A stretch of 32,000 nt of DNA from Acaryochloris marina MBIC11017 (GCF_000018105.1 NC_009925.1:6120001-6152000), one strand, 5' to 3'; numbered from the stretch's first letter, positions 14,771-30,177 are shown. Notes: generated by a model not told the origin, from the letters alone. Translations and numbers: made by a program.

Positions 14771-16273
14771 TTAGAACTCAAGTCGCTGATATTCTGCGAC
14801 TGAGGCTGCTGCAGGGCGGGCTCTTTGGCGAGCCCAGTCCCGTAAGGCCATTACCTGCTCGGTCATTGTCTTGGAGAGGGGTAAGGTGGAGCGGCTGGCG
14901 GCAATAATATCGAGTTGCGTGAATTCGCGATTTTGGGAAAAAGCTTCGTACATGGCGGCGATGACGACCTGTTCAATTTCTGCTCCCGAAAAGCCTTCGC
15001 AAACGTTTGCGAGTTCAGCTAAGTTAAAACGGGAAATATCTCGACGACGCTGGGAGAGATGAATATTAAAAATTTGCTGGCGCTCTTGGGGGTTGGGCAA
15101 ATCGACAAAGAAAATTTCGTCAAAACGGCCTTTACGCAGAAATTCTCCAGGTAAGCGTTCAACCCGGTTAGCGGTAGCCATCACAAAGACGGGAGAAGTC
15201 TTTTCCTGCATCCAGGTTAAAAACGACCCGAAAATTCGGCTGGAGGTGCCGCCGTCTGAATCTGCCGATCCGGCACCACCCGCAAAGGCCTTGTCCATCT
15301 CATCAATAAATAAGATAGCTGGAGAAATAGACTCAGCGGTTTTGAGGGCACTTCGTAAATTGGCTTCTGACCGTCCTACGGTGGAGCCGTCATAGACACG
15401 TCCCATATCTAAGCGGAGGAGGGGTAAGCCCCATAACCGTGAAGTGGTTTTGGCAATCAGGGACTTTCCGCATCCAGGAACCCCCAAAATTAACATGCCT
15501 TTGGGTTGGGGTAAGCCATATTCCCGTGCCCGTTCAGTAAAGGCTTCCGACCGCTGGGTCAGCCAATGCTTCAATTCTTCTAAACCACCGACGGCATCAA
15601 TGGTGTGATCACTTTCGATATAGTCTAGAATGCCATTGCGGCGAATAAGCTGCTTCTTTTCGGAGAGCACAACTTCAACTTCGGCTTCTGTGAGTTGACC
15701 CGCTGTTACTTTGGCTTTGCGATAAACTTTTTCAGCTTCATCTTTGGTCAATCCGAGGGCTGCTTTTAGCAGTTTTTCCCGTGCTGGAGTGCCTAGGGAC
15801 CGCCCTGTAAACTGCAACTGCTGATCCAGAACATCTTGGAGTTCAGCCAGGTTAGGGAAGGGATAGTCGAGAACGACCATTTCCGTCTCCAACTCATGGG
15901 GAACCTGATGAACAGGAGACATCAAGATGATGGTTTTTCGGGTGTTTTTAAAGCTTGCGATCGCATCTCGTAACCATCGCATCACTTCAGCATTATCTAG
16001 AAACGGATGCAGATCCTTAAAAATAAAGATGGCGTCTTGACGTTCCCCAATGGCTGATTGGATCGCCATCTGGGGAGAAACAGTACTATGTTGGGTGGAA
16101 CTGCGGGGCTGTCCATGCTCAACGGTTCCCCGAGTCAACGTCCAAACAAAAACCTTTCGTTCCTGCCTTTGAGCAATGGCAGCAATCGCTTCCTCTGCCC
16201 GTTCTTCCTCGGGGGTAACGAGGTAGATCAAAGGATATTGAGCTTGAATAAGAATACTTAGCTCTTCTTTCAT
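14771..16273 (-). CDS. ycf46: AAA+ ATPase, Ycf46-type
   Basis: The 500-aa product has the N-terminal QAQYPLIYLVTPEEERAE region typical of Ycf46. The C-terminal AAA module has Walker A GVPGCGKS, Walker B ILFIDEMDK and second-region-of-homology-like MATANRVERLPGEFLRKGRFDEIFFVDLP. Confidence 0.85.
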   Translation of the reverse strand: MKEELSILIQAQYPLIYLVTPEEERAEEAIAAIAQRQERKVFVWTLTRGTVEHGQPRSSTQHSTVSPQMAIQSAIGERQDAIFIFKDLHPFLDNAEVMRWLRDAIASFKNTRKTIILMSPVHQVPHELETEMVVLDYPFPNLAELQDVLDQQLQFTGRSLGTPAREKLLKAALGLTKDEAEKVYRKAKVTAGQLTEAEVEVVLSEKKQLIRRNGILDYIESDHTIDAVGGLEELKHWLTQRSEAFTERAREYGLPQPKGMLILGVPGCGKSLIAKTTSRLWGLPLLRLDMGRVYDGSTVGRSEANLRSALKTAESISPAILFIDEMDKAFAGGAGSADSDGGTSSRIFGSFLTWMQEKTSPVFVMATANRVERLPGEFLRKGRFDEIFFVDLPNPQERQQIFNIHLSQRRRDISRFNLAELANVCEGFSGAEIEQVVIAAMYEAFSQNREFTQLDIIAASRSTLPLSKTMTEQVMALRDWARQRARPAAASVAEYQRLEF

Positions 16274-16354
16274 GACCTTTGTCTCCCAATGCAGGGTTGA
16301 CTACAGAGGATGCATGAAGTTGGACAGACAGCTATTAAAGAATAGGCCGAAAAA

Positions 16355-16681
16355 TCAGACGCCCGCTCCCACGAGTTCTTCAGCTGCAGGTTGAACCTTC
16401 AGTCCATCATCACTTAACATGGCAGGCTGCTCTTTCATTGAAACCAACTCACCCGCACGCAAAACGACAGTCGTCGTACATTCGGGACAGGCATATACTT
16501 GATGGGTCGCCCCATAAGCAGATACTTCTGTTTGCTCCACCACCTCAGGATGACCCAGGTAGAAATCAATGGCCCGTTCAGCAATGGCTGACATGGGCTC
16601 TGCATCAACGGCAGCTCGAATTTTGAGTTGACGATGCAGGTCGGGTGGTAGGTAAAGAGTAACCTTTTGTTTGTCTTGCAT
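16355..16681 (-). CDS. Ribbon-helix-helix (CopG/Arc-like) protein with an internal CPEC motif
   Basis: KVTLYLPPDLHRQLKIRAAVDAEPMSAIAERAIDFYL is a classic RHH beta-alpha-alpha pattern. It is followed by YACPECTTTVV. It lies directly upstream of ycf46 and is co-directional with it. Confidence 0.65.
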   Translation of the reverse strand: MQDKQKVTLYLPPDLHRQLKIRAAVDAEPMSAIAERAIDFYLGHPEVVEQTEVSAYGATHQVYACPECTTTVVLRAGELVSMKEQPAMLSDDGLKVQPAAEELVGAGV

Positions 16682-16724
16682 ATGGCTTAGTAAATGGATA
16701 CCCGGGTATTAAGGAACAGCTTAA

Positions 16725-16754
16725 AGATTAGACACATTGCTGTCAAGCTGTCAA
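16725..16754 (-). promoter_or_regulatory. Candidate sigma-70-type promoter for the RHH-ycf46-ycf35 operon
   Basis: On the minus strand there are tandem TTGACA hexamers (complements of 16749-16754 and 16741-16746). The distal one lies 18 nt upstream of TAATCT (complement of 16725-16730), about 45 nt upstream of the RHH start codon. Confidence 0.4.
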
Positions 16755-16800
16755 ACCGTTATGACGTCAATTTCTTCATATAAGTACATAAAGTATGGGC

Positions 16801-17505
16801 TCATACTTGAATCTGAGTGACGGCAATATTGCCCTGAAAACAAATATCCACATCACTACCCAGTTCGCGATCTCGGCCATGATAATTGCCTACATACACT
16901 AAACCTGCTTCTTCTTGGCGATAGGCGACGGGTAAAGGTTGTCTGGACAGTGGACATTGAATAATTTCAGGATCGGGGGCCCCTGGAGGCAGATGGGGGA
17001 AGTTTACATTCCAAAATGCTTGTGAAGGTAGGGGCTGGTCCTGTAAGTGCTGGATGACCCGTTTGGCCCAGCGAGTTGAGCGGGACCAGTCGATGGGGCG
17101 GTCTCGGCGATGATATTGAGAAAGGGCTATACCGGGAATACGATGCAAGGCAGCTTCTCGGACGGCGGCAACCGTTCCCGAAACATAGATATCTGAGCCT
17201 AAGTTACCGCCCATATTGATGCCGGAAAAAACCCAAGTCAGCTTGGGACAGAGATGCTGGAGGGCTACCCGAACGCAATCGACTGGCGTTCCGCCAATAC
17301 CATAGCTGGCAAGCAGATTAGACCCCGCTGGCCGCTGGTCGATGGTAATGGGGGCAGAAGTTGTGACTTGATGTCCACAACCAGAATGGTGGGTTTGGGG
17401 TGCAATCAACAAAGCTGGCTGCTCCATCGCCTGTGCTAAGGCTGCAATGCCTGGGGCATCAATGCCGTCATCGTTGGTGAGAATCCAAGTCATGCCAAAA
17501 GGCAC
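16801..17505 (-). CDS. surE: 5'/3'-nucleotidase SurE
   Basis: The N-terminal (M)TWILTNDDGIDAPGI is the SurE signature, and GINMGGNLG and SGTVAAVREAA are also conserved. The start is ambiguous between GTG 17505 (the AGGAAA box 17516-17521 lies closer to this start) and ATG 17493. Confidence 0.85.
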   Translation of the reverse strand: MPFGMTWILTNDDGIDAPGIAALAQAMEQPALLIAPQTHHSGCGHQVTTSAPITIDQRPAGSNLLASYGIGGTPVDCVRVALQHLCPKLTWVFSGINMGGNLGSDIYVSGTVAAVREAALHRIPGIALSQYHRRDRPIDWSRSTRWAKRVIQHLQDQPLPSQAFWNVNFPHLPPGAPDPEIIQCPLSRQPLPVAYRQEEAGLVYVGNYHGRDRELGSDVDICFQGNIAVTQIQV

Positions 17506-17553
17506 ATCATAGTATTTCCTCAGACGATGTGGGAAAGTCCGAGACGATAGAGA

Positions 17554-18438
17554 TTAAAGATTGGCGTGGTGGGTTGAGCAATTGCGGCCGGATTGTTTGG
17601 AATAGTACAAGGCCTGATCGGCTTCATTGATGAGTTCTTTGGCTGTTTTATAGGTAGAGTCTTGATCTGCGATCGCAGTGGCAACTCCCACACTGATTGT
17701 AATTTCTTGAATGGGCCAGCCATAATTATCTACCGCCTGCCGTAACGACTCGGCTACAGTAAATGAACCCTGCTGGTCACTGTCTGGCAAACACACCACA
17801 AATTCTTCCCCACCATAGCGACCGGCCAAGTCGCTTCTGCGTAAGTTGGTTTTGAGGATACCTGAAATTAAGACAAGGGCTTGGTCCCCAGCTGAGTGAC
17901 CATAGGAATCATTAAAGGTTTTGAAGTAATCTACATCCAGCAATAGGATTGACAAAGGGCGTTGAGTGCGGGCGGCAAAAGACTGATATTGCTGGAGTTG
18001 AGTTAAAAACCCCCTCCGATTCATCAACTCCGTTAAAGAATCGGTATAAGCTAGTTCGGTGAGTCGAAAATTCTCTTGCAGAATCCCCTCTTGAAATCGT
18101 TTGAGGGCCTCACTCTCTCGGGCAATACCCAAGATAGAGTTTGAGCTGGAGTCAAAGCTAAAGGACCAAGTTAAATAAGCCTGATTTCCGTCTGCTTTGC
18201 AGTGTAAGGTTTCAAAGTTAGGAATACTTTGGTTGATCGTCGATTGGAGAACCTGCTGAGTTTGCTGTATCCATTCAGCATGGACAAAATCAAGAAATGA
18301 TCGCCCGTGGACTCGGCTCGTATCCCAGCCAAATAGCTGAGTAAATGAGGTGTTTACTCGGTGAATGGTGTAATTGGGCTTCAATATGCAGATAATCTCT
18401 GGGCAAATATTGAAGAGTTGGTCCAGATTTGGTTCCAA
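17554..18438 (-). CDS. PAS-domain diguanylate cyclase (GGDEF)
   Basis: The C-terminal GGDEF domain has the active site GGEEF and an RxxD I-site (RRSD) five residues upstream. The N-terminal ~110 aa are PAS-like. Confidence 0.85.
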   Translation of the reverse strand: MEPNLDQLFNICPEIICILKPNYTIHRVNTSFTQLFGWDTSRVHGRSFLDFVHAEWIQQTQQVLQSTINQSIPNFETLHCKADGNQAYLTWSFSFDSSSNSILGIARESEALKRFQEGILQENFRLTELAYTDSLTELMNRRGFLTQLQQYQSFAARTQRPLSILLLDVDYFKTFNDSYGHSAGDQALVLISGILKTNLRRSDLAGRYGGEEFVVCLPDSDQQGSFTVAESLRQAVDNYGWPIQEITISVGVATAIADQDSTYKTAKELINEADQALYYSKQSGRNCSTHHANL

Positions 18439-18709
18439 GGTAAGTTTCGACTGAAGAGGGACTTGTTGTTCGGCTAAGAGATTAATCTTGATATTCCTGA
18501 AAAAACGGTTTTTGGGGCCGAATTACGAGATCAATATAGTGTCAGTGACTCATTTGGCTAACGACAGAAGTGACTTAAATAGAGAAATGCTATAGATTCT
18601 ATTCTGTCTTAAGATACCCGAAAAGAACTGGCTTGATACCTGAGAACTTTTGATGTGTTGAGAGTTAAATTGAGCCGTTTATGCATCTACTTTTTAGACA
18701 CTCGCTGAT

Positions 18710-20428
18710 TTAATACCCTGACGCAGTCCCTTCGCCTCGGGGGTCAGCTGCACCAAACAATTTATCTTGGGGGGTCACTTCAATTAAGTTGGCATTGCCC
18801 CATTGAGTTCTCATCTGAATGTCATGTCCGCGCTGTTTTAGTGCTTCCACAGTGGTTGGGGGAAATTTCACCCGTTCTTCAATGCGTAAGGGCAGAGGCC
18901 GCCATTGATGGTGAACTTTAGGGGCGTTAATGGCGGTGGCGACGTCCTGTTCAAACACCAACACATTCATCACTAACTGCAATACGGTGGTGATAATCGT
19001 GCTGCCCCCGGCGGCACCCACGACAAGTCTTAGTTTTCCTGCCTCGGTGACGATGGTCGGCGTCATGCTGGAGAGAGGCTTTTTGGCGGGTGCGATCGCA
19101 TTTTGAGTATTGCCAACTAATCCAAAGGCATTGGGAATCCCCGGTGCAGTTGCAAAATCATCCATCTCATTATTAAGAAGGATGCCAGTTCCGGGGACGA
19201 CGACCCCAGCCCCAAAGCCTAAATTGAGGGTAAATGTGAGGCTAACGGCATTGCGATCGCGATCCACTACATTTAAGTGACTGGTATCATTCGATTCTTT
19301 TTGTAGCCACTTCAAGGTTCGAGCATCCATGGCCTTGACCTGGTCTGCTGGACGAGCTTGATTGGGATCAATCTCCTGAAAGCGACGTTGGGCATATTGG
19401 GGACTGATCAGTTCCTGGACGGGAACCTCAACAAAATCAGCATCTCCAAGATATTCGGCACGATCGGCATAGGCAATTTTCATCGCCTCTACCAGGGCAT
19501 GTACATAGTCGGGATGATCGGACTTGGCTGGAAATGGCAGGCCGAGGGTGAGTAGATTGAGGATTTGGTTGAGATGAACTCCCCCCGAAGAAGGCGGAGG
19601 CATGGAGCAGACCTGCATTTGTTGGAACTCGCCACATAAGGGCTCTCGCCAAGTGGGGGCATAGGTCCTTAAATCCCAAAGGGAAACAAGGCCATCGTTA
19701 TTGCGCATATCCTTGGCTATGGCTAGGGCAATAGAGCCAGAGTAAAAGTCCTGCGGATCCTGAGCGAGACGTTTTAGGGTTTTAGCTAAGTCGGTTTGGA
19801 TCAGGCGACTGCCAACCGTCAAGGGTTGACCCTTAGTCAGAAAAATCTCCCGAGCAGCGGGATTTGCTGCCAGGGCCTTTTGACGCAGGCGGATGATACG
19901 GTGGGTGCGATCGCTGACCACAAATCCCTCTTCAGCCAGTTTGATCGCAGGATTTAGTAACGTTTGCCAAGGCAATCGACCATGTTTTTGGTGAATAGCT
20001 TGCAACCCCGCAATAGTTCCCGGTACGGCGACGGCTCGATGGCCGTCAATACTGGCTCGGGGAATCACCTGACCCTCTGCATCAAGGTAGAGTCGAGAAT
20101 CTGCTTTGAGGGGAGCCCGCTCGCGAAAATCCAGAGCGATCATCTGATCGGTCTCCTCCAGTCGCAGAAGCAAGAACCCCCCTCCTCCAATCCCTGCTGA
20201 GAAGGGTTCCGCTACTGAGATGGCCATCGCTGTGGCCACGGCAGCATCCACCGCATTACCACCTTGTTTGAGGATCTCTAAGCCAACCCTCGTTGCGTCG
20301 GGATGAGTAGAGGTGACGAGGCCAGTTCGGCCTTGAACAAGAGGTGGAGCGGCTATACCAGGCCCTGCTAAGGAGCTGATTGTCAAACATATGCTAGAGT
20401 AGGCAGCCCAAAATTTTAGTAGCACCAT
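18710..20428 (-). CDS. ggt: Gamma-glutamyltranspeptidase precursor
   Basis: The 572-aa product has an N-terminal signal-like segment, the autoprocessing/nucleophile region NDTSHLNVVD, and conserved GGGGFLL and SSMTPTIV motifs. Confidence 0.9.
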   Translation of the reverse strand: MVLLKFWAAYSSICLTISSLAGPGIAAPPLVQGRTGLVTSTHPDATRVGLEILKQGGNAVDAAVATAMAISVAEPFSAGIGGGGFLLLRLEETDQMIALDFRERAPLKADSRLYLDAEGQVIPRASIDGHRAVAVPGTIAGLQAIHQKHGRLPWQTLLNPAIKLAEEGFVVSDRTHRIIRLRQKALAANPAAREIFLTKGQPLTVGSRLIQTDLAKTLKRLAQDPQDFYSGSIALAIAKDMRNNDGLVSLWDLRTYAPTWREPLCGEFQQMQVCSMPPPSSGGVHLNQILNLLTLGLPFPAKSDHPDYVHALVEAMKIAYADRAEYLGDADFVEVPVQELISPQYAQRRFQEIDPNQARPADQVKAMDARTLKWLQKESNDTSHLNVVDRDRNAVSLTFTLNLGFGAGVVVPGTGILLNNEMDDFATAPGIPNAFGLVGNTQNAIAPAKKPLSSMTPTIVTEAGKLRLVVGAAGGSTIITTVLQLVMNVLVFEQDVATAINAPKVHHQWRPLPLRIEERVKFPPTTVEALKQRGHDIQMRTQWGNANLIEVTPQDKLFGAADPRGEGTASGY

Positions 20429-20569
20429 GGTTGTTTATTGATAGCCGAACGAGGAGACTTTATAAATGCAAAATCCAATCAGCAATTAGCTTAGCGTGGA
20501 ATAGGGAGACTAACTGGATTTCACCGCCATTGGGCTCACTGCAATCAATTTTGAGCTTTCTACCCGCCC

Positions 20570-23197
20570 TTATGCATCAGCAACTAATATTTGGGATTCA
20601 ATATTGTCCCAAACTGATTGTGAGAATGATAATGCAGACTTCTGACAGTGAATGATAACAATCATTGCTTTGAGATAATGATTGAGGGAATCCAATTCTT
20701 CCAAGGAAAAGCTGACCAAATCGAACTTGACTTTAAACGCATTAATCCAGATCTGCTGGGCTCGCTTAGCGAACACTAAATTCTCCTCAAAAGGCGCTGA
20801 GTCACTGGGGATATCACCTTTTAGTGATTCAAGATCGTTCACTAATTTATTAAAGTCGACAGAGTTGAATATTTTTGCTTCTTTGAACTTTTTGGCGCTA
20901 ATGATTGAAATTTTAATAGCACGTAAAAATGCATTTTTATGGGTGCTTTCTATGCCGCAATACATCACTGTATCGGTTGTTCTATTGCGATCTAAAGCCA
21001 GAGTTAGTAGTCGTTTGTGCGTTAGGGTGCCTGTAAGCTCACGAGCTAAATCATAGGTATAGTACAGTTTCTTTTTGAGATTGGCATCCTCTGGATTTGC
21101 GAAACGGGTAATAGCATAGAGAGGATGTACACCAGGGAAAAAGAGTCCAATTGCAGTCGCTCTTTTGGCTGCTACCTTGAAATCACCTTCCGTATTTTGA
21201 GTCATTAGATCCGCACATCGAAGTAACTTCTGGAGTGCTGAAGAATTTTCCACATAGCTATGGGCATGCTTTGCCATGATTTGTAAAATTTTGTCAGCCT
21301 TACTCATACCTGATAGCAATAAGAAAATTTCTTGCCACCGATCATCCGTTAGATATTCTCCAATCAACTCCTGTAAAAGTGAGTCATCATGTTTAGACTG
21401 AGCAAAAATGTACTGGGCAGCTAGAAATTCTTGAATGGTTAAGTGTGAGAAGGAGTACACTGCCTCGACCCGCTCAACCAATAGTCCATGCTGTAATTCA
21501 ATTGATTTCAAGACTTTCTTGCCATCAATTAACGCAACATCCGGCAGCATTTCACTCAATAGATCTTCAAGCTGCTGGGTTAGGGTTCGTCTTGTGATAA
21601 ATAGTTCATCTCTTTGAAAGGCATCAAACGCAATTTTTGAAAGAATAATCTCTTTGCGTTTGATGGCTAGTCCTTTATAAATACTTTCTCTGGGCACATC
21701 TTTTTCAGCATCCCACTCTTCTAAGAGCACCCACAGAGACTTTTCATACAAGGTTGCTCTATGTTTCGGGAACTGTCCTTCCCTTTGAAAAACGAGACAA
21801 AGCATGGTGAGCAGTAATGGTGTTCGAGTCAGCTCTTTGGCGGCTGTATTACTGTCAGTATTCAGTTGCTCCCAACATTTTCGACCCTGTTGGGGCTGCT
21901 TATGAAACCATTTTTCTATAAATTGCCCGATCTGATGGTCATCAAATTCAGCAATGACAACATCTGTAAAGTTGCGGAGATTATATTTATAGGCCGCAGG
22001 TCTACAGGTAATGATGAACCGATTTTGGTGAAATCGATTGGCAAAATCTTGAATTTTTGATATTGCCTCGCTCATTTGTTCTATCGGTACTTCATCTAGC
22101 CCATCTAGCAATAACAGCAAATTCCCTTGAACCAGAGCCTTCTCTAAAAAATGTTGAGGTTTAGGAAATCCACAAATTTTGAATTCTTCAATAATTGCGG
22201 ATTCCAGATCAACTTCTGTAAAACTAAATTTTTTAAGCTCAATAAAGACGGGAATGCAGTTATGCTGATAGCCACCTTGATCCTTATGATTTAGAGTTTC
22301 TAGGCCTATTTTCCGTAAGAAGGTGGATTTGCCTGTACCAGGACCGCCTAATACCATTAGATATTGATATGTATTGGCTATCTCTAAGCCAGACTGTCGT
22401 TTAGCCCGCTTTTCTTCTCGCAAAAAAACTTTTCGCTGCCGGTAGTTCTCTTCCAGCCAATTAATGGACGCAGAGCTAAGAACGGAATCTTCATTGAGTA
22501 AGTGCATCGTGGTATAGAGGGAGTCCAGCTGGGCTGGCCCTCTCATCCCCAATACCTTCAAAATGCCATGACGTTCCGAATACCGTTTCAAATACTCTTC
22601 CGTAGAAAAATAGCATTGCTGATGGCTATGGGGACCAGATTGATAGTTGAGTGAAGCGTTTAGTGTTCTATTTCTTTCGGCAACGCTATAAGTAACACCT
22701 TGTAAAGTGGGAATTGATTGGCTTGTGTTATAACCATAGTCAGTGACTTGTTTAGATTTAGAGGGTCTAAGACGCTCCCATTCGTCGTGAAACTTTGCTA
22801 AATTCTCTGCAGTACTGTACCGATTAAACCAAAGCTTAATTGTAAAATTCCACTTGTGCGATCCTCTTGGCTGAGACCGGTTATCTACAAGGATATTTAG
22901 GAACTTTTCTAATAGTTTGAGTGAATTTTTGACTTGATTGTTATTAAGCTGACCATGATAGGTATCAGTCTGGGTTAGGCTCACTAAAGCCTGAACCGTT
23001 GTCTCGACCACTAGTTGATAGTCTGTCTGCCAATTGACTCTGATTTTTGATCGGAGTTGCTCACTAATTTCGAATTCATCATTGGCATAGGCAATTAATC
23101 CTTCAAGCAGACGCTTTGTCCTTCGTCTAGGGACTGGACCATAGGTTAAATGATTTCTCCCATTCTCATGATCGGGATATTGGCCAGAGTCAAACAT
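20570..23197 (-). CDS. NACHT-domain STAND NTPase (875 aa) with uncharacterised N- and C-terminal regions
   Basis: Walker A is GGPGTGKST (residues 284-292, nt 22322-22348). Walker B is LLLLLDGLDEV (nt 22088-22120). FIITCRP and TRTPLLLTMLC are NACHT hallmarks. The N-terminal ~270 aa contain a block (LNNNQVKNSLKLLEKFLNILVDNRSQPRGSHKWNFTIKLWFNR..FHDEWERLRPSKS) that I recall from the N-termini of other cyanobacterial STAND/WD40 proteins. The C-terminal ~400 aa look helical, with no obvious WD40/TPR/LRR periodicity. Confidence 0.85.
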   Translation of the reverse strand: MFDSGQYPDHENGRNHLTYGPVPRRRTKRLLEGLIAYANDEFEISEQLRSKIRVNWQTDYQLVVETTVQALVSLTQTDTYHGQLNNNQVKNSLKLLEKFLNILVDNRSQPRGSHKWNFTIKLWFNRYSTAENLAKFHDEWERLRPSKSKQVTDYGYNTSQSIPTLQGVTYSVAERNRTLNASLNYQSGPHSHQQCYFSTEEYLKRYSERHGILKVLGMRGPAQLDSLYTTMHLLNEDSVLSSASINWLEENYRQRKVFLREEKRAKRQSGLEIANTYQYLMVLGGPGTGKSTFLRKIGLETLNHKDQGGYQHNCIPVFIELKKFSFTEVDLESAIIEEFKICGFPKPQHFLEKALVQGNLLLLLDGLDEVPIEQMSEAISKIQDFANRFHQNRFIITCRPAAYKYNLRNFTDVVIAEFDDHQIGQFIEKWFHKQPQQGRKCWEQLNTDSNTAAKELTRTPLLLTMLCLVFQREGQFPKHRATLYEKSLWVLLEEWDAEKDVPRESIYKGLAIKRKEIILSKIAFDAFQRDELFITRRTLTQQLEDLLSEMLPDVALIDGKKVLKSIELQHGLLVERVEAVYSFSHLTIQEFLAAQYIFAQSKHDDSLLQELIGEYLTDDRWQEIFLLLSGMSKADKILQIMAKHAHSYVENSSALQKLLRCADLMTQNTEGDFKVAAKRATAIGLFFPGVHPLYAITRFANPEDANLKKKLYYTYDLARELTGTLTHKRLLTLALDRNRTTDTVMYCGIESTHKNAFLRAIKISIISAKKFKEAKIFNSVDFNKLVNDLESLKGDIPSDSAPFEENLVFAKRAQQIWINAFKVKFDLVSFSLEELDSLNHYLKAMIVIIHCQKSALSFSQSVWDNIESQILVADA

Positions 23198-23605
23198 GGG
23201 CCGAGGTCGAATGTATTACAGGATATGTACAGTAGATACAACATGCAAACCTAATCATAGATCTAGATGCTGTCGGTTCTGGTTATTACACCGCGAATAA
23301 AGTTAATAGCAATTGATAGGTTGGGCAACTGTTCTTAACTCTAGAATCTTTTATTGGTATAGCTTCTTGCGATTATAAAGTACCTGTTGCTTGTTGTTAC
23401 TAGCATCAAGTTATCAGTGGTTATATGGACTAGTCGCAACGTTGTTGTTTGGTCTGGTGAGACTTTGTTGTTGTTTGAGGGGTAAGTCTCCTCATTAGCT
23501 CAAAGGGTTTCAGTGTGTTTGTCAAAGATGGATTTTTTACGGGGGATTAAGTTGTAAAAAACGAATGGTTTTCGACTTTGCTATTCTCTAGACGATGCAA
23601 GACAT

Positions 23606-24286
23606 ATGAATATCACTGATCGAGATTCAAATCCAATAGATGCAGAAGTTCTTCCATTATTGCTGGAGGCTCGTCAATATCCCCCAGGTCATCATAAGAG
23701 GAAGCAATGTTTATCGAAAATAATTAGGATTATCCAAAAATCGAAAAAGCTTTGGTACGAACATACCCCATACTATGAAGATGCTCTACAGCTGACCTGG
23801 CTTTATTTTTGCCAGAATATTTGTGAAGAAGGTACCGGTAAGCAATTTGACCCAGATCGCAGTAGCATCATCACTTGGTTAAATCAGTATCTCAAATGGC
23901 GTTTGCGAGACTTCCAGATCAGCAAGGCTCAGTATCATGCCAGATTTTGTTTTCCTATCTCTTCAACTGGGGCAAATCAAGCTTGTGATGCCATGGCAAA
24001 CCTTGCCGCTCCACCAGATATCCCTCCAATTTTAGAAGTGACCCGTCATTGGGTAGAAACAGATCCGACTGGAGAATTGCGTGGGTTGCATATCCTCAAT
24101 CGTCCTGATGTGAATTGCCAAGTCTTGTTATTGAAGCGCATCTTCTCAGATATGCAATGGGACCAAATTTCTCAGGAGTTCGATTTGCCTATTTCTACAC
24201 TGAGTAGTTTTTTTCAGCGACGATGTATGCCGGTGGTCAAGAAGTTTGGCGAACAGCAGGGCTTTCTTGATCATAAGCACCCTTGA
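23606..24286 (+). CDS. Sigma-70-family (ECF-like) protein of the cyanobacteria-specific type
   Basis: The N-terminal LLLEARQYPPGHHKRKQCLSKIIRII...YEDALQLTWLYFCQNI...FDPDRSSIITWLNQYLKWRL matches the pattern I recall for short cyanobacterial sigma-like proteins (..HPPGS.ER..AL..L...YE.A.Q.L.LY.C.NI..YDPERG..M.W.N..L). The C-terminal WDQISQEFDLPISTLSSFFQRR looks like a region-4 helix-turn-helix. Confidence 0.65.
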   Translation: MNITDRDSNPIDAEVLPLLLEARQYPPGHHKRKQCLSKIIRIIQKSKKLWYEHTPYYEDALQLTWLYFCQNICEEGTGKQFDPDRSSIITWLNQYLKWRLRDFQISKAQYHARFCFPISSTGANQACDAMANLAAPPDIPPILEVTRHWVETDPTGELRGLHILNRPDVNCQVLLLKRIFSDMQWDQISQEFDLPISTLSSFFQRRCMPVVKKFGEQQGFLDHKHP

Positions 24287-24322
24287 GACGTTATACCTGC
24301 ATGGATTGGTAACAGTTCCTAC

Positions 24323-25828
24323 CTGACTTTTCACGGTAACTCCTGGAGTTATTTTCCCATAGAGGTTCTAGAAAATCTTTCTCCATACAACTACGATGAC
24401 TAAACCCCGAGTATGGAGATGATTAGGATGCAGACATGGTGGAAGAAAAACTTTGCTGAGTGTCAATTCAGTGATCAGCGCTTGACCCATCGAGCCTTAA
24501 AGATTGGTCAAGCAATTTGCGAAGGCTTCGGCCAAGCCCTGTCGAGCATTTTCAAGACTGCAACAGAGCTCAAACGCTCTTATGAATTTTCGCCAATGGG
24601 AAAACTAGCTTTGCTCTTGTGATTACGCCTCATTGTCGTGCAACCGCCCGAGCCATTGCTGAGGAAGAGATTACCTTGTGCGTGGGTGATACGAGCTTTT
24701 TAGATTACGGAGGCATCAAGAAGAAGCGTCAAGGCTATGGTCCTCAAGGCAATGGGGGAAATGGCTTATTGCTCCACAGTGCCTTAGCTGTTGACCCGGC
24801 GCAGGGTCAGCCGTTGGGGTTGCTATGGCAAAAGGTATGGAATCGTCAGCATCGACCCCAGCCTCCGAAAAAGGAAACCCCGCGACAAAAGAAGAAGCGT
24901 CAGGCAAAGGCGCGAAAAGCTTCTCGGAATCGACCGTTTGAGCAAAAGGAATCCTATCGTTGGGTGGAGGCCATGCAAGCCGTAGAGAAAATAGTGAGTC
25001 CGTCAACCCGCACCATCCATGTGTTCGACCGAGAAGGAGACATCGCCGAAGTGTTCGAGCAGCTCAACCATCTTCGCAACACAGGGGTTGTGGTCAGAGC
25101 CTCACATAATCGTCGACTTGAGCAAGACCCTAATCGGCTGTGGGAAAAGCTGGAAGCCCAAAGGGTTCAATTGGAGTATGAAATTGACTTACCCAAAACG
25201 AAAGACCGGAGTGCACATACAGCCAAGCTAGTGGTGCGCTGTTGTCTTGTCCAACTGCAGCGACCCACCCGTCTAGCTGATAGTCACCCCCTCCAAGTCT
25301 ATGCCGTTTATGCCACAGAAGTAGATCCCCCAGAGGATGAAGACCCTGTCTCATGGATGTTGCTCACGAGTGAAGCGGTCACCACGGTGGAGATGGCCCA
25401 GACCATTTTGCGCTGGTACACATACCGATGGAGAGTGGAGGAATATCACAAAATTCTCAAATCAGGGACTCAGGCGGAGCGGTATCGTTTGGCGGCTGAG
25501 GGGATGAAAACCTTATTGGGATTCCTATGTGTCACTGCTGTAGAGCTATTGCGTCTGACCTACTTAGAACGCACATCTCCGCAACGTCCTGCTCAAGATG
25601 TCGTCACACCTTTGCAACTCAAGGTTCTTATTTCTAAGACACCGAAAGTTCCCAAACCCCTCACTGTTTCTTGGGCAGTGAAGGCGGTTGCACGACTCGG
25701 AGGATACTTGGAGCATCGTCGCAATACACCGATTGGGATTCAAGTCCTTTGGAAAGGATGGGCTAAGTTAAATCTCCTGATGGAGGGCTGGCAGTTAGCA
25801 ACCCAGGAGACTTACCGTGAAAAGTCAG
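24323..25828 (+). mobile_element. IS4-family, IS50/Tn5-like insertion sequence (1506 bp) with an 8-bp target-site duplication
   Basis: Perfect 17-bp terminal inverted repeats CTGACTTTTCACGGTAA lie at 24323-24339 and, as the reverse complement, at 25812-25828. They start with CTGAC like the Tn5 outside end. Direct repeats GTTCCTAC flank the element at 24315-24322 and 25829-25836. Confidence 0.9.
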
Positions 25829-25962
25829 GTTCCTACACCCAAAAAGTAGGGCTTGATCAAAGTGTCTCTATCAAGGTGCTGATTCAATTCAGGGCAGCAC
25901 TGGGATGTTTTTTAGCCCTTTGTAAAGTAATCTACCAACCGATTTCTACTACCCTTCTATAG
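24413..25962 (+). pseudogene. Tn5-like DDE transposase split by a 1-nt frameshift, with the reading frame running out through the right IS end
   Basis: ORF 24413..24622 encodes the Tn5-type N-terminal DNA-binding region. ORF 24619..25962 encodes the DDE core (VGDTSF, VFDREGD, YRWRVEEYHKILKSG) and the C-terminal WAVKAVARLGGYLEHRR. The frames join as ..KRSYEFFANGKTSFALVITPHC.. if the T4 run at 24587-24590 were T5. No in-frame stop occurs before the IS end at 25828, and the ORF terminates 134 nt into flanking DNA. Confidence 0.8.
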
Positions 25963-26207
25963 GATGTAGAAGTAAGCTGCTAACGGAAGTGAATGGTATA
26001 GCTGTTGTGAGTTGTGGCCTCCTAGTTCCACTATCTATGAGCCCCTTCATGTGATTTTTCTGCCAAACTCAATGGTCCTGGTGCTTCGCTCCAATCTAAT
26101 AGGGGAAGGCTATATTTGGTGTATAACGCTCCCATGTATAGGGGTTAGGATCTGGGTTGACAATAAAGATCCTCGGTTCTGTGATGGGTGTTGAATGGGG
26201 AACATCT

Positions 26208-27872
26208 ATGAAATCACAATGGCTTTCCAAGTATTCGTTATCGTCTGCAGATGCAGAGCGATTAGACCAATTTTTTGACGACATTCAGAAAGAATCGAAG
26301 CTGTTTTTAGGGTATCCCTGTAACGGCATTTTTGATTACTCCCCTCTGTATCGATTTCTGCAATTCCCCCTCAACAATGTGGGGGATCCTTTTCTTGCCA
26401 GTAACTATCACCTCAATACCCACGCTTTTGAATGTGAACTACTGGAAATTTTTCAAGACTTAACCCAAGCTCCTCCGGGAAGTACTTGGGGCTATATTAC
26501 CAATGGTGGAACTGAGGGGAACCATTATGGTTTATTTCTTGCGCGGGAGTTAATGCCAGGGGGCATCGTTTACTATTCTCAAGATGCCCATTACTCCATC
26601 GATAAAATTCTGCGCTGTCTGAATTTAGATAGCATTATGATTCGGAGTCAGCCGGATGGCTCGATGGATTTAGACGATCTGCGAGAGACCTTACGGATTC
26701 ACCGGGATGTGCCGGCGATTGTGTGTGCCACGATTGGAACCACTATGAAAGGGGCCGTTGATGATATTGCTGGAATTCAAGGGATTTTTCAGGATCTAGC
26801 TTTGAAGCGTCATTATCTCCATGCTGATGCAGCTTTGGGGGGGATGGTTCTTCCGTTTATTGATACTGCGCCTCCATGGAACTTTGCGGATGGCATTGAT
26901 AGTATTGCCATTAGTGGCCATAAAATGATTGGTTCGCCGATTCCCTGCGGTGTGGTCTTGGCGAAAAAAGGTAATGTTGATCGAATTGCTCAAAGTGTGG
27001 AATATATCGGCACCTTGGATACCACTCTCAGTGGATCTCGAAATGGCTTTACACCGTTGTTTCTTTGGTATGCATTTCATACGATTGGTGTGGACGGATT
27101 TAAGCAGATCGTGCCGAACTGCTTAAAGATGGCAGACTATGCTATTGCCCAGCTGAATCAACTTGACCGCAATGCTTGGCGACATCCCTATTCCAATATT
27201 GTGGTGTTTGATCGCCCTTCCCCTGTGGTAACCCAGCGATGGCAGTTGGCTTGTAATGGTTCTTTGACTCATCTGATTGCTATGCCCCATGTGGTAAAAG
27301 AGCAAGTTGATCAATTGGTGGCTGATATTCAGTCCTTGGAGTCACCACCAGAACCATCTTTAACCGATCTGCCGGTCTGTGAAACGACTTTAGGGGAAAC
27401 CAACGAAGAAATTACCCTGGTCGGTTCATCTGAAGAGTATTTGCTGACTCAGATATCTGTGGCTTTGGCGTCAGCGGGAATTTCCATTGAAGATATTACG
27501 GCGGTCCAGGCCGCAGGGGGGAGCATCATCCAGCTGAAGGTGAATGACCGGGCTCGGGCATTACAGATTTTGAATGAGCATTTAGATATCGGTCGTTGTC
27601 ATGGTCAGTATCGGCCCTTTAATACAGAATCCGCGACCCAAATGCTGACTCAGGCAGATTATCAGACGGTTAGCCAAGATGCCCTGTTAGTGAAGCTGAA
27701 TGATAAGCCTGGGGCTTTGGCAGAGTTGATGAAGAAATGTCGAGAACATGCGATCTCGATCCGTAGTGTCCGCCTTGTATGGCGAGGACAAGGCAGTGCC
27801 CTGGTTGAAATCGCCTCGGATCAACATCAAACCTTGCAGAGTCTCTTGGTTGATCAGGTTGTTGTGCAATAG
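26208..27872 (+). CDS. hdc: PLP-dependent histidine decarboxylase (group II) fused to two C-terminal ACT domains
   Basis: The sequence is collinear with enterobacterial HDC as I recall it: FLGYPCN, WGYITNGGTEGN, HADAALGGMVLPF and the PLP-lysine motif ISGHKMIGSPIPCG (Lys codon 26922-26924). After ~residue 400 come two beta-alpha-beta-beta-alpha-beta-like ACT modules (ITLVGSSEEYLLTQISVALASAGISIEDITAV.. and LLVKLNDKPGALAELMKKCREHAISIRSVRLV..). The start is set at ATG 26208 (MKSQWLSKYS..); the ORF-track start at 26157 is an upstream alternative. Confidence 0.8.
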   Translation: MKSQWLSKYSLSSADAERLDQFFDDIQKESKLFLGYPCNGIFDYSPLYRFLQFPLNNVGDPFLASNYHLNTHAFECELLEIFQDLTQAPPGSTWGYITNGGTEGNHYGLFLARELMPGGIVYYSQDAHYSIDKILRCLNLDSIMIRSQPDGSMDLDDLRETLRIHRDVPAIVCATIGTTMKGAVDDIAGIQGIFQDLALKRHYLHADAALGGMVLPFIDTAPPWNFADGIDSIAISGHKMIGSPIPCGVVLAKKGNVDRIAQSVEYIGTLDTTLSGSRNGFTPLFLWYAFHTIGVDGFKQIVPNCLKMADYAIAQLNQLDRNAWRHPYSNIVVFDRPSPVVTQRWQLACNGSLTHLIAMPHVVKEQVDQLVADIQSLESPPEPSLTDLPVCETTLGETNEEITLVGSSEEYLLTQISVALASAGISIEDITAVQAAGGSIIQLKVNDRARALQILNEHLDIGRCHGQYRPFNTESATQMLTQADYQTVSQDALLVKLNDKPGALAELMKKCREHAISIRSVRLVWRGQGSALVEIASDQHQTLQSLLVDQVVVQ

Positions 27873-28013
27873 CTGTAAATCGCAAAGTCTTTATTGTCAC
27901 CAGCTAGGTTGTTCTCATTAAACACTGCAAAGATTGTTCCAACCCTATCAATACATTGGGGAAATTAAGAGTACTGAACAGACTAAATACTGATTCACCA
28001 AAGCCTAAAATTA

Positions 28014-28421
28014 ATGATGCCTGATATTTTTGACTATATTTTGGGAGATAGATATATCCTTCCTCTCCTTGCCTTAACTGTGGTTAGTTTTTTACTTTCA
28101 GTTCAGCATTTTTATAACACCAATACTGATAATTCCGAATATCAGTCTAGTCATTCAAGTCAAGCTGCATCCGAAACTAAAACGCAATCCAAGGGAGGCT
28201 GGAAAATTAACTTATTGTTTATCGCTGGTGGCTTGTTTTACCTCAGAGTAGTCGGTAATTTAGTGGGTTTTTCTCGTGCAGACTTTTACCTGGACGAAGA
28301 CGGTTTGAGTGGGAAAGCTGGCCTTCTATTGATTAGTGGTTACTACGTAGTTATATTCTTTATTATTCTCGCTAGAAGAGCTGGTGAATGGCTTAGCAAA
28401 AGATTAAACAATCAAACATAA
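28014..28421 (+). CDS. Hypothetical membrane protein (135 aa, about three TM segments)
   Basis: The ORF has hydrophobic helices (ILPLLALTVVSFLLSV, INLLFIAGGLFYLRVVGNLVGF, LLLISGYYVVIFFIILA). I recognise no family. Confidence 0.5.
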   Translation: MMPDIFDYILGDRYILPLLALTVVSFLLSVQHFYNTNTDNSEYQSSHSSQAASETKTQSKGGWKINLLFIAGGLFYLRVVGNLVGFSRADFYLDEDGLSGKAGLLLISGYYVVIFFIILARRAGEWLSKRLNNQT

Positions 28422-28439
28422 TGTTGCTCTTCTAAATGC

Positions 28440-28617
28440 CTTTGTTGCATGAATCGAGTAAAGGTTACATGCACTACCTCTGCCCTGTATCCTTAAATCA
28501 ACCCAAACAGTATCAGGTTTGGCAATCTGAATCAGTCGATTGAGTACTGCACACTGCAGCAATAACTCAGTGGCTTTAGCTCACGCCTTATCCGCAGCAC
28601 CTATTCATGCAACAAAG
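28440..28617. repeat. 178-bp segment bounded by 15-bp perfect inverted repeats (MITE-like element or long stem structure)
   Basis: CTTTGTTGCATGAAT at 28440-28454 is the exact reverse complement of ATTCATGCAACAAAG at 28603-28617. The segment lies between two convergent genes. An internal palindrome CTGCA-CAC-TGCAG is also present. Confidence 0.5.
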
Positions 28618-28625
28618 CCCAAGTG

Positions 28626-30110: not shown

Positions 30111-30177
30111 TCATATGTTGTGTTCGAGGCTGATGAACTAATCTGGTCTACCATTGGGTCGATGGCTAGCTATAGTT

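What the first reader, a model, noticed from the sequence alone, without database searches (positions are those of the whole stretch)
20570..24286. Divergent NACHT STAND NTPase plus sigma-70-like gene in an AT-rich, HIP1-free, IS-bounded island: candidate two-gene conflict or signalling system
An 875-aa NACHT NTPase (minus strand) and a 226-aa cyanobacteria-type sigma-70-like protein (plus strand) are transcribed divergently from a shared 408-bp intergenic region.

The NACHT gene is visibly AT-richer than its core neighbour. My hand counts on 60-nt lines give 16, 19, 24 and 27 G+C (lines 20881, 22201, 21661, 22081), against 34 and 28 in ggt (lines 19021, 19741). The block contains none of the GCGATCGC octamers that pepper the core genes. 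A Tn5-like IS sits 36 bp beyond the sigma-like stop codon. Together this points to a horizontally acquired module.

Bacterial NACHT/STAND proteins are established antiphage or conflict sensors, and they normally carry an N-terminal effector domain. Here I see no nuclease, TIR, protease or similar motif. A dedicated sigma-like partner suggests instead that the output may be transcriptional.

I am not aware of a described defence or signalling system defined as NACHT plus sigma-like factor.
Basis: partly seen in the sequence, partly recalled or inferred. Interest (0 to 1): 0.8.

Follow-up and report, generated by a model that had tools for sequence, protein, structure and literature searches.

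The report
EAD4-NACHT gene beside orphan ECF-like sigma
Two real, conserved genes of already-described cyanobacterial "conflict system" families sit back to back in Acaryochloris, but comparative evidence suggests they are neighbours by descent and not a new NACHT-plus-sigma defence system.

Summary
The sequence facts hold: an 875-aa NACHT gene (20570-23197, minus), a 226-aa sigma-like gene (23606-24286, plus), a 408-bp gap, low GC, no HIP1, and an IS 36 bp after the sigma stop.

The interpretation mostly does not hold.
- The NACHT N-terminus is a full-length EAD4 adaptor domain (Pfam, 6e-40). EAD4-STAND is a catalogued architecture.
- The sigma-like protein has an ECF-like fold. Its family normally heads the operon sigma > DUF1822 > CHAT-CHASE2 > DUF928: DUF1822 follows in 49 of 80 genome loci, and Kaur et al. 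2021 described this neighbourhood.
- The NACHT-sigma pairing occurs only in Acaryochloris, always as SurE-GGDEF-ggt-NACHT<>sigma. It includes the type strain (AM1_6056/AM1_6057).
- Both genes are under purifying selection, and among close lineages their dS matches that of ggt, so inheritance looks vertical.
- The IS is a strain-specific insertion with a target duplication. It is absent from a 98%-identical contig.
- A paralogous EAD4-NACHT and two distant NACHT-NCH2 homologues have no sigma neighbour.
- No EAD4-sigma fusion was found, and there is no second EAD4 copy nearby.
- The conserved intergenic blocks travel with the NACHT gene, even in the paralogue that lacks a sigma neighbour.

Residual interest: the linked sigma is a diverged paralogue (invariant PPE replaced) that has been kept beside the NACHT gene, and one unrelated locus also places this sigma family near an EAD4-NTPase.

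The parts
20570..23197 (-). Gene for an 875-aa STAND NTPase with the architecture EAD4 - NACHT - helical region - NCH2. It is the orthologue of A. marina MBIC11017 AM1_6056.
   Evidence: ORF. Pfam: EAD4 6e-40, NACHT 3e-12, NCH2 1e-8. 98% identical to the CCMEE 5410 protein; the 90% cluster includes MBIC11017 AM1_6056. dN/dS 0.10-0.12.
22772..23140 (-). EAD4 adaptor domain (residues 20-142)
   Evidence: PF19959, positions 1-123 of 123, 137 bits. AF2 model pLDDT 87, mixed alpha/beta, with only weak winged-helix-like fold matches.
21899..22363 (-). NACHT NTPase core (residues 279-433). Walker A GGPGTGKS at 22325-22348; Walker B with the NACHT signature LLLLDGLDE at 22091-22117; TCRP motif at 21998-22009.
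   Evidence: Pfam NACHT 47 bits against a 26.7-bit cut-off. Motif positions. The D[GAS]hDE signature is as defined in Kibby et al..
20582..20845 (-). NCH2 C-terminal helical domain (residues 785-872), the presumed sensor or regulatory end. It has no repeat arrays.
   Evidence: PF22727, 35.4 bits against a 27-bit cut-off. Shared with about 700-aa NACHT-NCH2 homologues across cyanobacteria.
23198..23605 (.). Divergent intergenic region.
- NACHT-associated conserved blocks at 23296-23322, 23337-23346 and 23386-23418.
- A sigma-70-like promoter match facing the NACHT gene (GTAACA, 17-nt spacer, TATAAT; 23400 to 23372).
- A sigma-associated TTGCTATTC motif at 23578-23586.
   Evidence: Alignment of five lineages. 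The central blocks are also kept upstream of the NACHT paralogue L093, which has no sigma neighbour. Promoter scan. A TATTC motif lies 22-48 nt before the start of many family members. Coordinates. No Rfam match.
23606..24286 (+). Gene for a 226-aa ECF-like sigma-family protein, with a sigma2-like region at about aa 50-115 and a sigma4-like HTH region at about aa 141-218. It is the orthologue of AM1_6057 and an orphan paralogue of the sigma gene that heads the DUF1822/CHAT-CHASE2/DUF928 operon.
   Evidence: ORF. AF2 pLDDT 80; the top Foldseek hits are almost all ECF sigmas. 141 cyanobacterial homologues. Neighbourhood analysis. Phylogeny. dN/dS about 0.05. PPE replaced by FSD.
24323..25828 (+). 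Strain-specific IS4-family (Tn5-like) insertion sequence, 1506 bp. Inverted repeats CTGACTTTTCACGGTAA; 8-bp target duplication GTTCCTAC (24315-24322 and 25829-25836). The transposase is split over two frames. It is not part of the NACHT/sigma unit.
   Evidence: Pfam Tnp_DNA_bind, DDE_Tnp_1 and Dimer_Tnp_Tn5; NCBIfam IS4 family 1e-95. Absent from L001, which has one copy of the target site.

Best explanation
The locus holds two separately classifiable components of cyanobacterial conflict or signalling systems. They are neighbours by vertical descent in Acaryochloris and are not an obligate two-gene system.

(1) The 875-aa protein is an EAD4-NACHT-NCH2 STAND NTPase.
- Inferred from how STAND/NLR proteins work: the C-terminal helical region holds the NTPase off until a ligand, such as a phage or stress signal, is sensed. 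NTP-dependent oligomerisation then clusters the N-terminal EAD4 domains.
- EAD4 is an adaptor. The clustered domains are predicted to recruit or activate partner proteins by homotypic EAD4 contacts.
- No such partner lies nearby, so it must act in trans. One candidate is the second EAD4-NACHT paralogue seen in the genus.

(2) The 226-aa protein is an ECF-like sigma-family protein.
- It arose by a genus-level duplication of the sigma gene that normally heads the operon sigma > DUF1822 > (EACC2)CHAT-CHASE2 > DUF928.
- It lost those partners at this locus. One lineage, L007, still has a CHASE2 histidine kinase and a DUF928 gene beside it.
- It diverged (invariant PPE replaced by FSD) but stays under strong purifying selection. 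It probably still directs transcription of some regulon.

Each gene brings its own family-typical upstream elements into the shared 408-bp region.

Shown here: domain content, fold, phylogeny, synteny, selection, and the status of the IS.
Inferred: the activation mechanism, recruitment through EAD4, and sigma activity.
For: - Domain architecture, with the Walker A, Walker B (DGLDE) and TCRP motifs intact.
- EAD4 is described as a homotypic coupling adaptor (PMC7159879). In 129 representative EAD4 proteins scanned, it is fused mostly to STAND NTPases (NB-ARC 35, NACHT 33, nSTAND5 15, AAA_35, VMAP-C).
- The sigma-like protein has an ECF fold.
- In 49 of 80 genome loci the sigma gene is followed by DUF1822; 45 have CHAT/CHASE2 and 37 have DUF928. 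This matches the ECF-sigma + DUF1822 + EACC2-caspase neighbourhood of PMC8195603.
- The NACHT-linked sigma copies are monophyletic (200/200 bootstraps) and group next to the canonical Acaryochloris copies, with 108/200 support for that grouping.
- One MAG has both a linked copy (L007) and a canonical operon (L012).
- The block ggt-NACHT<>sigma is present in all five lineages and in MBIC11017 and CCMEE 5410. Among the close lineages, dS is 0.54-0.76 for both genes and 0.57-0.63 for ggt.
- The EAD4-NACHT paralogue L093 and the NACHT-NCH2 homologues L096 and L097 lack a sigma neighbour.
- The conserved intergenic blocks persist upstream of the L093 paralogue, which has no sigma neighbour.
- No sigma-profile hit in 148 EAD4 proteins, and hhalign probability 0.2 between the two families.
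Against: - The pair has never been separated in any Acaryochloris lineage sampled, although the flank just beyond the sigma gene differs in at least four ways: decarboxylase, ResT/TelK-like gene, DUF3370, and CHASE2 kinase.
- The linked sigma clade carries clade-specific replacements of family-invariant residues. This fits a new partner or role.
- An unrelated Coleofasciculaceae locus (L052) also places an orphan copy of this sigma family directly after EAD4-AAA_35 and AAA_35-WD40 NTPase genes. L049 has an nSTAND1-WD40 gene upstream.
- No EAD4-bearing effector was identified, so the output of the NACHT protein remains open.
- All comparative data for the pair come from one genus. General synteny there is high, so adjacency argues neither way.
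Confidence: 0.6

Rival explanations
1. First reader's model. The NACHT protein and the sigma-like protein form a dedicated two-gene system with a transcriptional output. In the resting state the NACHT protein holds or ignores the sigma. After sensing a signal it oligomerises and releases or activates the sigma, which then switches on a defence or dormancy regulon.
For: - The divergent pair is conserved in five lineages, with strong purifying selection on both genes.
- The region beyond the sigma gene is rearranged repeatedly, but the pair stays intact.
- Clade-specific PPE to FSD change in the sigma4-like region.
- A second, independent juxtaposition of this sigma family with an EAD4-NTPase in L052.
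- ECF-like HTH modules occupy the same N-terminal slot as EAD4 in TRADD-N proteins, so transcriptional outputs exist in this class of systems (PMC8195603).
Against: - Only one orthologous group out of 80 sigma loci has the NACHT partner; the family norm is DUF1822/CHAT-CHASE2/DUF928.
- The EAD4-NACHT paralogue and more distant NACHT-NCH2 homologues have no sigma neighbour.
- No EAD4 in the sigma protein and no sigma domain in 148 EAD4 proteins.
- The EAD4 fold shows no resemblance to anti-sigma domains.
- The conserved intergenic blocks belong to the NACHT gene and also occur where no sigma gene is present.
- Three of 80 loci with an upstream STAND gene is near what a genome with about 1% STAND genes and defence-island clustering would give. 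This is my rough estimate, not a computed control.
Confidence: 0.15
2. Regulatory coupling only. The sigma-like factor, alone or with the canonical CHAT-CHASE2 pathway, drives or boosts transcription of the adjacent NACHT gene from the shared divergent region. The NACHT gene would then be a regulon member and not a signalling partner.
For: - A shared 408-bp divergent region with strongly conserved blocks.
- ECF sigmas commonly control adjacent genes (general knowledge of ECF sigma factors).
- The conserved block contains AAC-rich elements (GATAACTT, TAGTAAC) loosely reminiscent of ECF -35 motifs. This is my reading and is not a test.
Against: - The best promoter match facing the NACHT gene is of the housekeeping sigma-70 type: GTAACA, 17-nt spacer, TATAAT.
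- The motif enriched upstream of family sigma genes (GCAATACT...TATTCTTGC) differs from the NACHT-side blocks.
- The NACHT-side blocks are also kept upstream of the L093 paralogue, which has no sigma next to it. A trans-acting sigma is not excluded.
Confidence: 0.15
3. A recently acquired mobile island delimited by IS elements and carrying both genes as cargo.
For: - Low GC (0.40-0.43 against 0.50-0.53 for ggt) and no HIP1 in the block.
- IS elements nearby.
Against: - Both IS copies are strain-specific insertions with target duplications and are absent from a 98%-identical contig. They flank the decarboxylase region, not the pair.
- There is no IS between ggt and the NACHT gene.
- The pair sits at the same chromosomal position in all lineages, and among the close lineages its dS equals that of ggt.
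- The low GC is shared by all lineages, so any transfer predates their divergence.
Confidence: 0.03

Closest known systems
EAD-coupled STAND / adaptor-type bacterial NACHT proteins (Kaur et al. 2020, eLife, PMC7159879; Kibby et al., bioRxiv 10.1101/2022.07.19.500537)
   Same: - N-terminal EAD4 in the position where EADs sit on core NTPases.
- A NACHT module with an intact Walker A and the D[GAS]hDE Walker B signature.
- A short helical C-terminus (NCH2).
- Found in a cyanobacterium, the phylum richest in such paralogues.
   Different: - No second EAD4-bearing gene in the 32-kb window or in any orthologous locus.
- No vWA-MoxR/VMAP context at this locus.
- No experimental antiphage data.
- No match to PADLOC models, and far below the cut-off of NCBIfam EruA (48 bits against 1000).
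ECF-sigma + DUF1822 + EACC2-caspase(CHAT)-CHASE2 (+DUF928) neighbourhood of cyanobacteria (Kaur et al. 2021, eLife, PMC8195603)
   Same: - The 226-aa protein is 57-61% identical to sigma genes that head this operon in other Acaryochloris.
- It groups next to them in the tree.
- L007 retains a CHASE2 protein and a DUF928 gene beside the linked copy.
   Different: - In the window there is no DUF1822, CHAT, CHASE2 or DUF928 gene.
- The family-invariant PPE motif is replaced.
- The upstream neighbour is a NACHT gene.
Classical ECF (group 4) sigma factors with anti-sigma partners (E. coli sigmaE/RseA, P. aeruginosa AlgU/MucA, B. subtilis SigW/RsiW)
   Same: - A predicted two-domain sigma2/sigma4 fold without sigma3.
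- EDALQ.TW and TWLN.YLKWRL motifs that resemble regions 2.1-2.4.
- A C-terminal HTH.
   Different: - Sequence profiles do not recognise it (no Pfam hit; TIGR02937 14 bits against 42.9).
- An extra N-terminal helical hairpin.
- No recognisable adjacent anti-sigma gene.
- RNA polymerase binding is untested.
STAND-family transcription regulators (MalT, AfsR, GutR) and mammalian CIITA
   Same: They are precedents for a STAND or NACHT switch with a transcriptional output.
   Different: In those proteins the DNA-binding or activation module is fused to the NTPase. Here the candidate transcription component is a separate sigma-like protein, and no evidence of coupling was found.

Membership tests
NACHT clade of STAND NTPases | Match to the NACHT profile above the curated threshold | tested here: met
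   PF05729, 47 bits against a 26.7-bit cut-off, residues 279-433
NACHT clade of STAND NTPases | Walker A P-loop, and Walker B with the D[GAS]hDE signature | tested here: met
   GGPGTGKS (aa 284-291) and LLLLDGLDE (aa 361-369). Signature as stated in Kibby et al..
NACHT clade of STAND NTPases | C-terminal winged-helix or helical extension of the NTPase | tested here: inconclusive
   NLRC4_HD2 scores 21 bits, below its 33.1-bit cut-off. NCH2 scores 35.4 bits, above its 27-bit cut-off. No structure of the full protein was predicted.
NACHT clade of STAND NTPases | Antiphage or cell-death activity dependent on NTP binding | not testable with these tools
   Needs expression and phage challenge. There are no PADLOC matches beyond a P-loop fragment.
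EAD-coupled conflict systems (Kaur et al. 2020) | An EAD at the terminus of the core NTPase component | tested here: met
   EAD4 PF19959, full length, E 6e-40, residues 20-142
EAD-coupled conflict systems (Kaur et al. 2020) | [quoted passage not shown] | tested here: not met
   An EAD4 profile search of the six-frame translation of the window and of the loci held at that point (L001-L095) finds only the NACHT genes themselves, L052 and L094. The rest of the genome could not be searched. Another EAD4-NACHT paralogue exists in the genus (L093).
EAD-coupled conflict systems (Kaur et al. 2020) | Embedding in a vWA-MoxR/VMAP, iSTAND or GAP1 ternary system | tested here: not met
   No such genes in the window. 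L087 has iSTAND/AAA/vWA genes 5.4 kb away, but without EAD4.
ECF (group 4) sigma-70 family | Sequence-profile match to the sigma-70 region 2 and region 4 families | tested here: not met
   No Pfam family even at E up to 10. TIGR02937 scores 14.1 bits against a 42.9-bit cut-off. A profile search of PDB sequences gives RpoE at only E 0.42.
ECF (group 4) sigma-70 family | Two-domain sigma2 + sigma4 fold | tested here: inconclusive
   AF2 pLDDT 80. The top Foldseek hits are almost all ECF sigmas (1or7 probability 0.99), but the best E is 7e-3 and the TM-score 0.3-0.4 because of the domain arrangement.
ECF (group 4) sigma-70 family | Binds core RNA polymerase and directs promoter-specific initiation; usually has a cognate anti-sigma | not testable with these tools
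   No adjacent anti-sigma-like gene was recognised. Biochemistry is required.
Sigma > DUF1822 > CHAT-CHASE2 > DUF928 system (Kaur et al. 2021) | The sigma component is homologous to the one that heads the operon | tested here: met
   57-61% identity to the operon-linked copies L008-L012, L002 and L090. The tree groups the two clades together.
Sigma > DUF1822 > CHAT-CHASE2 > DUF928 system (Kaur et al. 2021) | Adjacent DUF1822, CHAT/caspase-CHASE2 and DUF928 genes | tested here: not met
   None in the window. The downstream genes are the IS and then a PLP decarboxylase. Only L007 keeps a CHASE2 kinase and a DUF928 gene.

The most novel reading that the evidence does not exclude
After duplication of the canonical operon's sigma gene in an Acaryochloris ancestor, the orphan copie was co-opted as the transcriptional arm of the neighbouring EAD4-NACHT sensor. 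Oligomerised NACHT would then control an ECF-like sigma, a bacterial analogue of NLR-driven transcription such as CIITA. A similar capture may have happened independently next to EAD4-AAA_35 NTPases in Coleofasciculaceae (L052).
Probability: 0.15. Interest if true: 0.65.

Novelty: new member of a known kind. Interest (0 to 1): 0.3.

Why it matters
If the two genes are independent, as the evidence suggests, the finding adds one more EAD4-NACHT protein and one more paralogue of a described ECF-like sigma family. Its main use is as a caution that adjacency within a single genus is weak evidence for a system.

It still points to two open questions:
- What EAD4 recruits. No enzymatic effector showed up among the common EAD4 fusions.
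- What the uncharacterised cyanobacterial ECF-like sigma family regulates.

If the minority reading were true, it would be the first case of a bacterial NLR-like sensor signalling through a separate sigma factor. It could be tested in a sequenced type strain (AM1_6056/AM1_6057).

Tried and rejected
- **Cryptic EAD4 in the sigma protein.** BLASTP, Pfam at E up to 10 and hhalign of the two family alignments (probability 0.2) found nothing.
- **Word-indexed search with the EAD4 domain alone.** Only 3 hits.
- **Metagenome scan with an EAD4 alignment.** Only two short fragments.
- **Context for the closest non-Acaryochloris EAD4 protein (P0245).** It turned out to be the L052 locus again, so it gave no independent replicate.
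- **Shared ECF-type promoter motif.** The motif enriched upstream of family sigma genes lies 22-48 nt before the start codon and looks like a 5'-UTR or operator element. It is not found on the NACHT side.
- **Rfam scan of 20000-26500.** No match.
- **PADLOC.** Only a P-loop fragment hit.
- **EAD4 fold search.** No significant hit and no anti-sigma-like fold; only weak winged-helix resemblance.
- **First tree script.** It timed out and was rerun with my own NJ code.
- **dN/dS between the two deep subclades.** Not usable for the sigma gene, where NG86 returned no dS (saturated). For NACHT the dS values of 2.2-3.8 are close to saturation and one pair failed.

Full report
**Observation**

The window has an 875-aa ORF on the minus strand (20570-23197) and a 226-aa ORF on the plus strand (23606-24286), separated by 408 bp. 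GC is 0.403 and 0.427, against 0.525 for the adjacent ggt gene and 0.466 for the window.

The HIP1 octamer GCGATCGC occurs 12 times, against 0.26 expected by chance. All 12 copies lie at or before 19914. The block is therefore HIP1-free, but so is the whole right-hand 12 kb. For the 3.7-kb block alone, P(0) is about 0.1. The same absence is seen in four other lineages, each with P(0) of 0.09-0.32.

An IS4-family, Tn5-like element starts 36 bp after the sigma stop codon.

**What the NACHT protein is**

Pfam gives a full-length EAD4 domain (PF19959, residues 20-142, E 6e-40), a NACHT module (279-433), a weak NLRC4_HD2-like helical region, and NCH2 (785-872). Walker A (GGPGTGKS), the NACHT-type Walker B (LLLLDGLDE) and a TCRP motif are intact.

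Kaur et al. 2020 define EADs as small non-enzymatic adaptors. One copy sits on a core NTPase and another on an effector, and they are proposed to couple by homotypic contacts. EAD4 is listed among the effector-recruiting types (PMC7159879). Kibby et al. list EADs among the 'adaptor' N-termini of bacterial NACHT proteins.

An exhaustive HMMER search found 303 representative EAD4 proteins, with the domain almost always at the extreme N-terminus. Among 129 of them scanned with Pfam, the fused domains are mainly STAND NTPases (NB-ARC 35, NACHT 33, nSTAND5 15, AAA_35, VMAP-C) plus HEAT, TPR and WD40 repeats. EAD4-NACHT is therefore the ordinary architecture of this domain.

PADLOC gives nothing meaningful, and NCBIfam EruA is far below its cut-off.

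The AF2 model of EAD4 is confident (pLDDT 87). It has only weak winged-helix-like fold matches and nothing resembling an anti-sigma domain.

**What the sigma-like protein is**

Pfam finds nothing even at E up to 10, and TIGR02937 reaches only 14 bits. An AF2 model built on 20 homologues has pLDDT 80. Of its 17 best PDB fold matches, all but three (ranks 4, 10 and 14) are ECF sigma factors, including sigmaE, AlgU, SigL, SigH and SigK. The best probability is 0.99, but the best E is only 7e-3.

The family is purely cyanobacterial: 141 clusters in the protein search and 431 loci in species-representative genomes.

In the 80 best genome loci:
- 49 have a DUF1822 gene downstream. In most of these it follows the sigma gene directly; in about eight it lies 3-6 kb away.
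- 45 have a CHAT(-cyclase)-CHASE2 or CHASE2 protein.
- 37 have a DUF928 gene.

This is the 'ECF sigma + DUF1822 + EACC2-caspase' neighbourhood already described by Kaur et al. 2021 (PMC8195603). A Nostocales variant has RnfD-like and DUF2330 genes upstream and TPR-CHAT downstream.

**Is the pair a system?**

From the sigma side, only one locus of the 80, L007 from another Acaryochloris species, has the orthologous EAD4-NACHT partner.

Targeted look-ups added more Acaryochloris lineages (L087, L091, L092, L001). All show SurE-GGDEF-ggt-NACHT<>sigma. Cluster membership shows the genes are AM1_6056 and AM1_6057 of A. marina MBIC11017; both are also present in CCMEE 5410, and the sigma-like protein is also recorded from 'Moss Beach' and NIES-2412. 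No paper mentions these locus tags.

Amino-acid identities relative to the window:

| Gene | L091/L092 | L087/L007 |
|---|---|---|
| sigma | 92-93% | 65-67% |
| NACHT | 87-88% | 72-74% |
| ggt | 90-91% | 84-86% |

Among the close lineages, dS is 0.54-0.76 for NACHT and sigma and 0.57-0.63 for ggt. dN/dS is about 0.05 (sigma), 0.10-0.12 (NACHT) and 0.07-0.08 (ggt). Both genes are thus functional and were inherited vertically with the core flank. The low GC is shared by all lineages, so any foreign origin predates their divergence.

The flank beyond the sigma gene varies:
- decarboxylase in the window, L001 and L092;
- a ResT/TelK-like gene directly adjacent in L091;
- DUF3370 in L087;
- a CHASE2 histidine kinase plus DUF928 in L007.

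From the NACHT side, a 57-59% identical EAD4-NACHT-NCH2 paralogue (L093) has a different small ORF upstream and no sigma gene. Two NACHT-NCH2 homologues from other cyanobacteria sit among housekeeping genes, also without a sigma-like gene.

No second EAD4 copy exists in the window or in any flank. No EAD4 protein matches the sigma profile. The two families show no remote similarity.

**Origin of the linked sigma**

In a neighbour-joining tree of 86 family members, the NACHT-linked copies form a clade in 200 of 200 bootstraps. The operon-linked Acaryochloris copies form a clade in 197 of 200, and the two clades group together in 108 of 200. One MAG carries both kinds (L007 and L012).

The simplest history is a duplication of the operon's sigma gene in an Acaryochloris ancestor. 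L007 may retain remnants of that duplication (a CHASE2 protein and a DUF928 gene). The linked clade has replaced the family-invariant PPE at positions 180-182 by FSD, FAQ or FSQ, and R210 by V, L or T. It is therefore a diverged but constrained paralogue.

**Intergenic region**

Alignment of five lineages shows conserved blocks at 23296-23322, 23337-23346 and 23386-23418, and a TTGCTATTC motif 24 nt before the sigma start codon.

The central blocks are also conserved upstream of the L093 NACHT paralogue, which has no sigma neighbour. They overlap a housekeeping-type promoter match that faces the NACHT gene. The TATTC element recurs 22-48 nt upstream of many other family sigma genes.

Each gene thus seems to carry its own upstream elements, which argues for two juxtaposed units. 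These are consensus matches and footprints, not mapped promoters.

**The IS and the 'island'**

Comparison with the 98%-identical contig L001 shows two complete, strain-specific IS insertions with target duplications. The first is at 24323-25828, with an 8-bp duplication. The second is at 30178-31660. Together they flank the decarboxylase region, not the pair. 'IS-bounded island' is refuted.

**Points that keep the minority reading alive**

- The pair has not been separated in any sampled lineage, despite repeated rearrangement next to it.
- The linked sigma copy has clade-specific changes.
- In one unrelated MAG (L052, Coleofasciculaceae, which also has a canonical operon at L033), an orphan sigma copy lies directly after EAD4-AAA_35 and AAA_35-WD40 genes, near a sigma70_r4/GerE-TIR-AAA_35 gene.
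- L049 has an nSTAND1-WD40 gene upstream.

Three of 80 loci with an upstream STAND gene is close to what I would expect from the abundance and clustering of such genes in these genomes. That is an estimate, not a computed control.

**Verdict**

The domain reading is incomplete, and the island and system interpretations are mostly unsupported. The locus is best described as an EAD4-NACHT-NCH2 STAND NTPase next to an orphan paralogue of the DUF1822/CHAT-system ECF-like sigma. Both belong to computationally described but experimentally untested families. Novelty: new member of a known kind. Interest: 0.3.

Noticed in passing
window 24323-25828 and 30178-31660: Two complete IS elements that are absent from the 98%-identical contig L001.
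- IS1: IS4/Tn5-like, 1506 bp, inverted repeats CTGACTTTTCACGGTAA, 8-bp target duplication GTTCCTAC. Its transposase is split into two frames (24413-24622 and 24619-25962).
- IS2: 1483 bp, DDE_Tnp_1 ORF at 30219-31637, inverted repeats CAATGGCACTGACTTAAG, about 10-bp duplication AGCTATAGTT.
   Followed up: yes
window about 11400-27900; gene at 9256-11370: The segment from sucrose synthase through ggt-NACHT-sigma to the decarboxylase is inverted relative to the related contigs L091 and L092. A 704-aa protein with a ResT/TelK telomere-resolvase catalytic domain (PF16684, 3e-30) sits at one breakpoint. A protelomerase-like gene in a cyanobacterial chromosome is unusual.
   Followed up: partly
window 7480-8553 (minus): A psbA-like ORF (Photo_RC, 3e-71) lies in a stretch (about 7330-8820) that does not align to L091 or L092 at the corresponding position. 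It may be a strain-specific extra copy or insertion.
   Followed up: no
window 26157-27872 (plus): A 571-aa PLP-dependent decarboxylase with C-terminal ACT domains. It is present next to the sigma gene in the window, L001 and L092 but absent in L091, so it is a variable gene in this region.
   Followed up: partly
L007 8726-11107 (minus) and 11683-12654 (plus): In Acaryochloris sp. IP29b_bin.137, the NACHT-linked sigma gene is followed by a CHASE2-HisKA-HATPase kinase and a DUF928 gene. These may be remnants or a variant of the canonical sigma/DUF1822/CHAT-CHASE2/DUF928 operon.
   Followed up: partly
L052 1395-13898 (same as L098-L100): A Coleofasciculaceae conflict-gene cluster: EAD4-AAA_35 (509 aa), then AAA_35-WD40 (1452 aa), then a sigma-like gene (228 aa), then a pentapeptide-repeat protein, plus a sigma70_r4/GerE-TIR-AAA_35 protein on the opposite strand. 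This is the only independent co-occurrence of EAD4 with this sigma family that I found.
   Followed up: partly
upstream of the sigma-like genes in L036, L055, L058, L061, L070, L077, L080, L083 and others; window 23578-23586: A conserved element, GCAATACTAAGATATTCTTGC(TTT), lies about 17-40 nt before the start codon of many Nostocales family members. A related TTG(C/T)TATTC motif lies 24-25 nt before the Acaryochloris linked copies. It may be a 5'-UTR or operator element of this sigma family.
   Followed up: partly
sigma-like protein residues 180-182 and 210 (window 24143-24151 and 24233-24235): The family-invariant PPE (100%, 99% and 95% of 81 other members) is replaced by FSD, FAQ or FSQ, and R210 by V, L or T, only in the NACHT-linked clade. 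These copies nevertheless have dN/dS of about 0.05.
   Followed up: yes
L087 11062-13624: An iSTAND gene, a MoxR-like AAA gene and a vWA (CoxE-like) gene lie 5.4 kb beyond the sigma gene in one Acaryochloris lineage. This is a Kaur-2020-type ternary system, and no EAD4 was detected in it.
   Followed up: no
window 2004-3692 (plus) and 28014-29315: A 562-aa ORF next to an ABC ATPase gene, and two ORFs of 135 and 229 aa after the decarboxylase, have no Pfam match. The stretch 27874-28613 does not align to L001.
   Followed up: no
window 19915-32000: There is no HIP1 octamer in the last 12 kb of the window, although all 12 copies lie in the first 19.9 kb. L001 has a HIP1 inside the decarboxylase gene, so at least one absence is due to a point difference.
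   Followed up: partly
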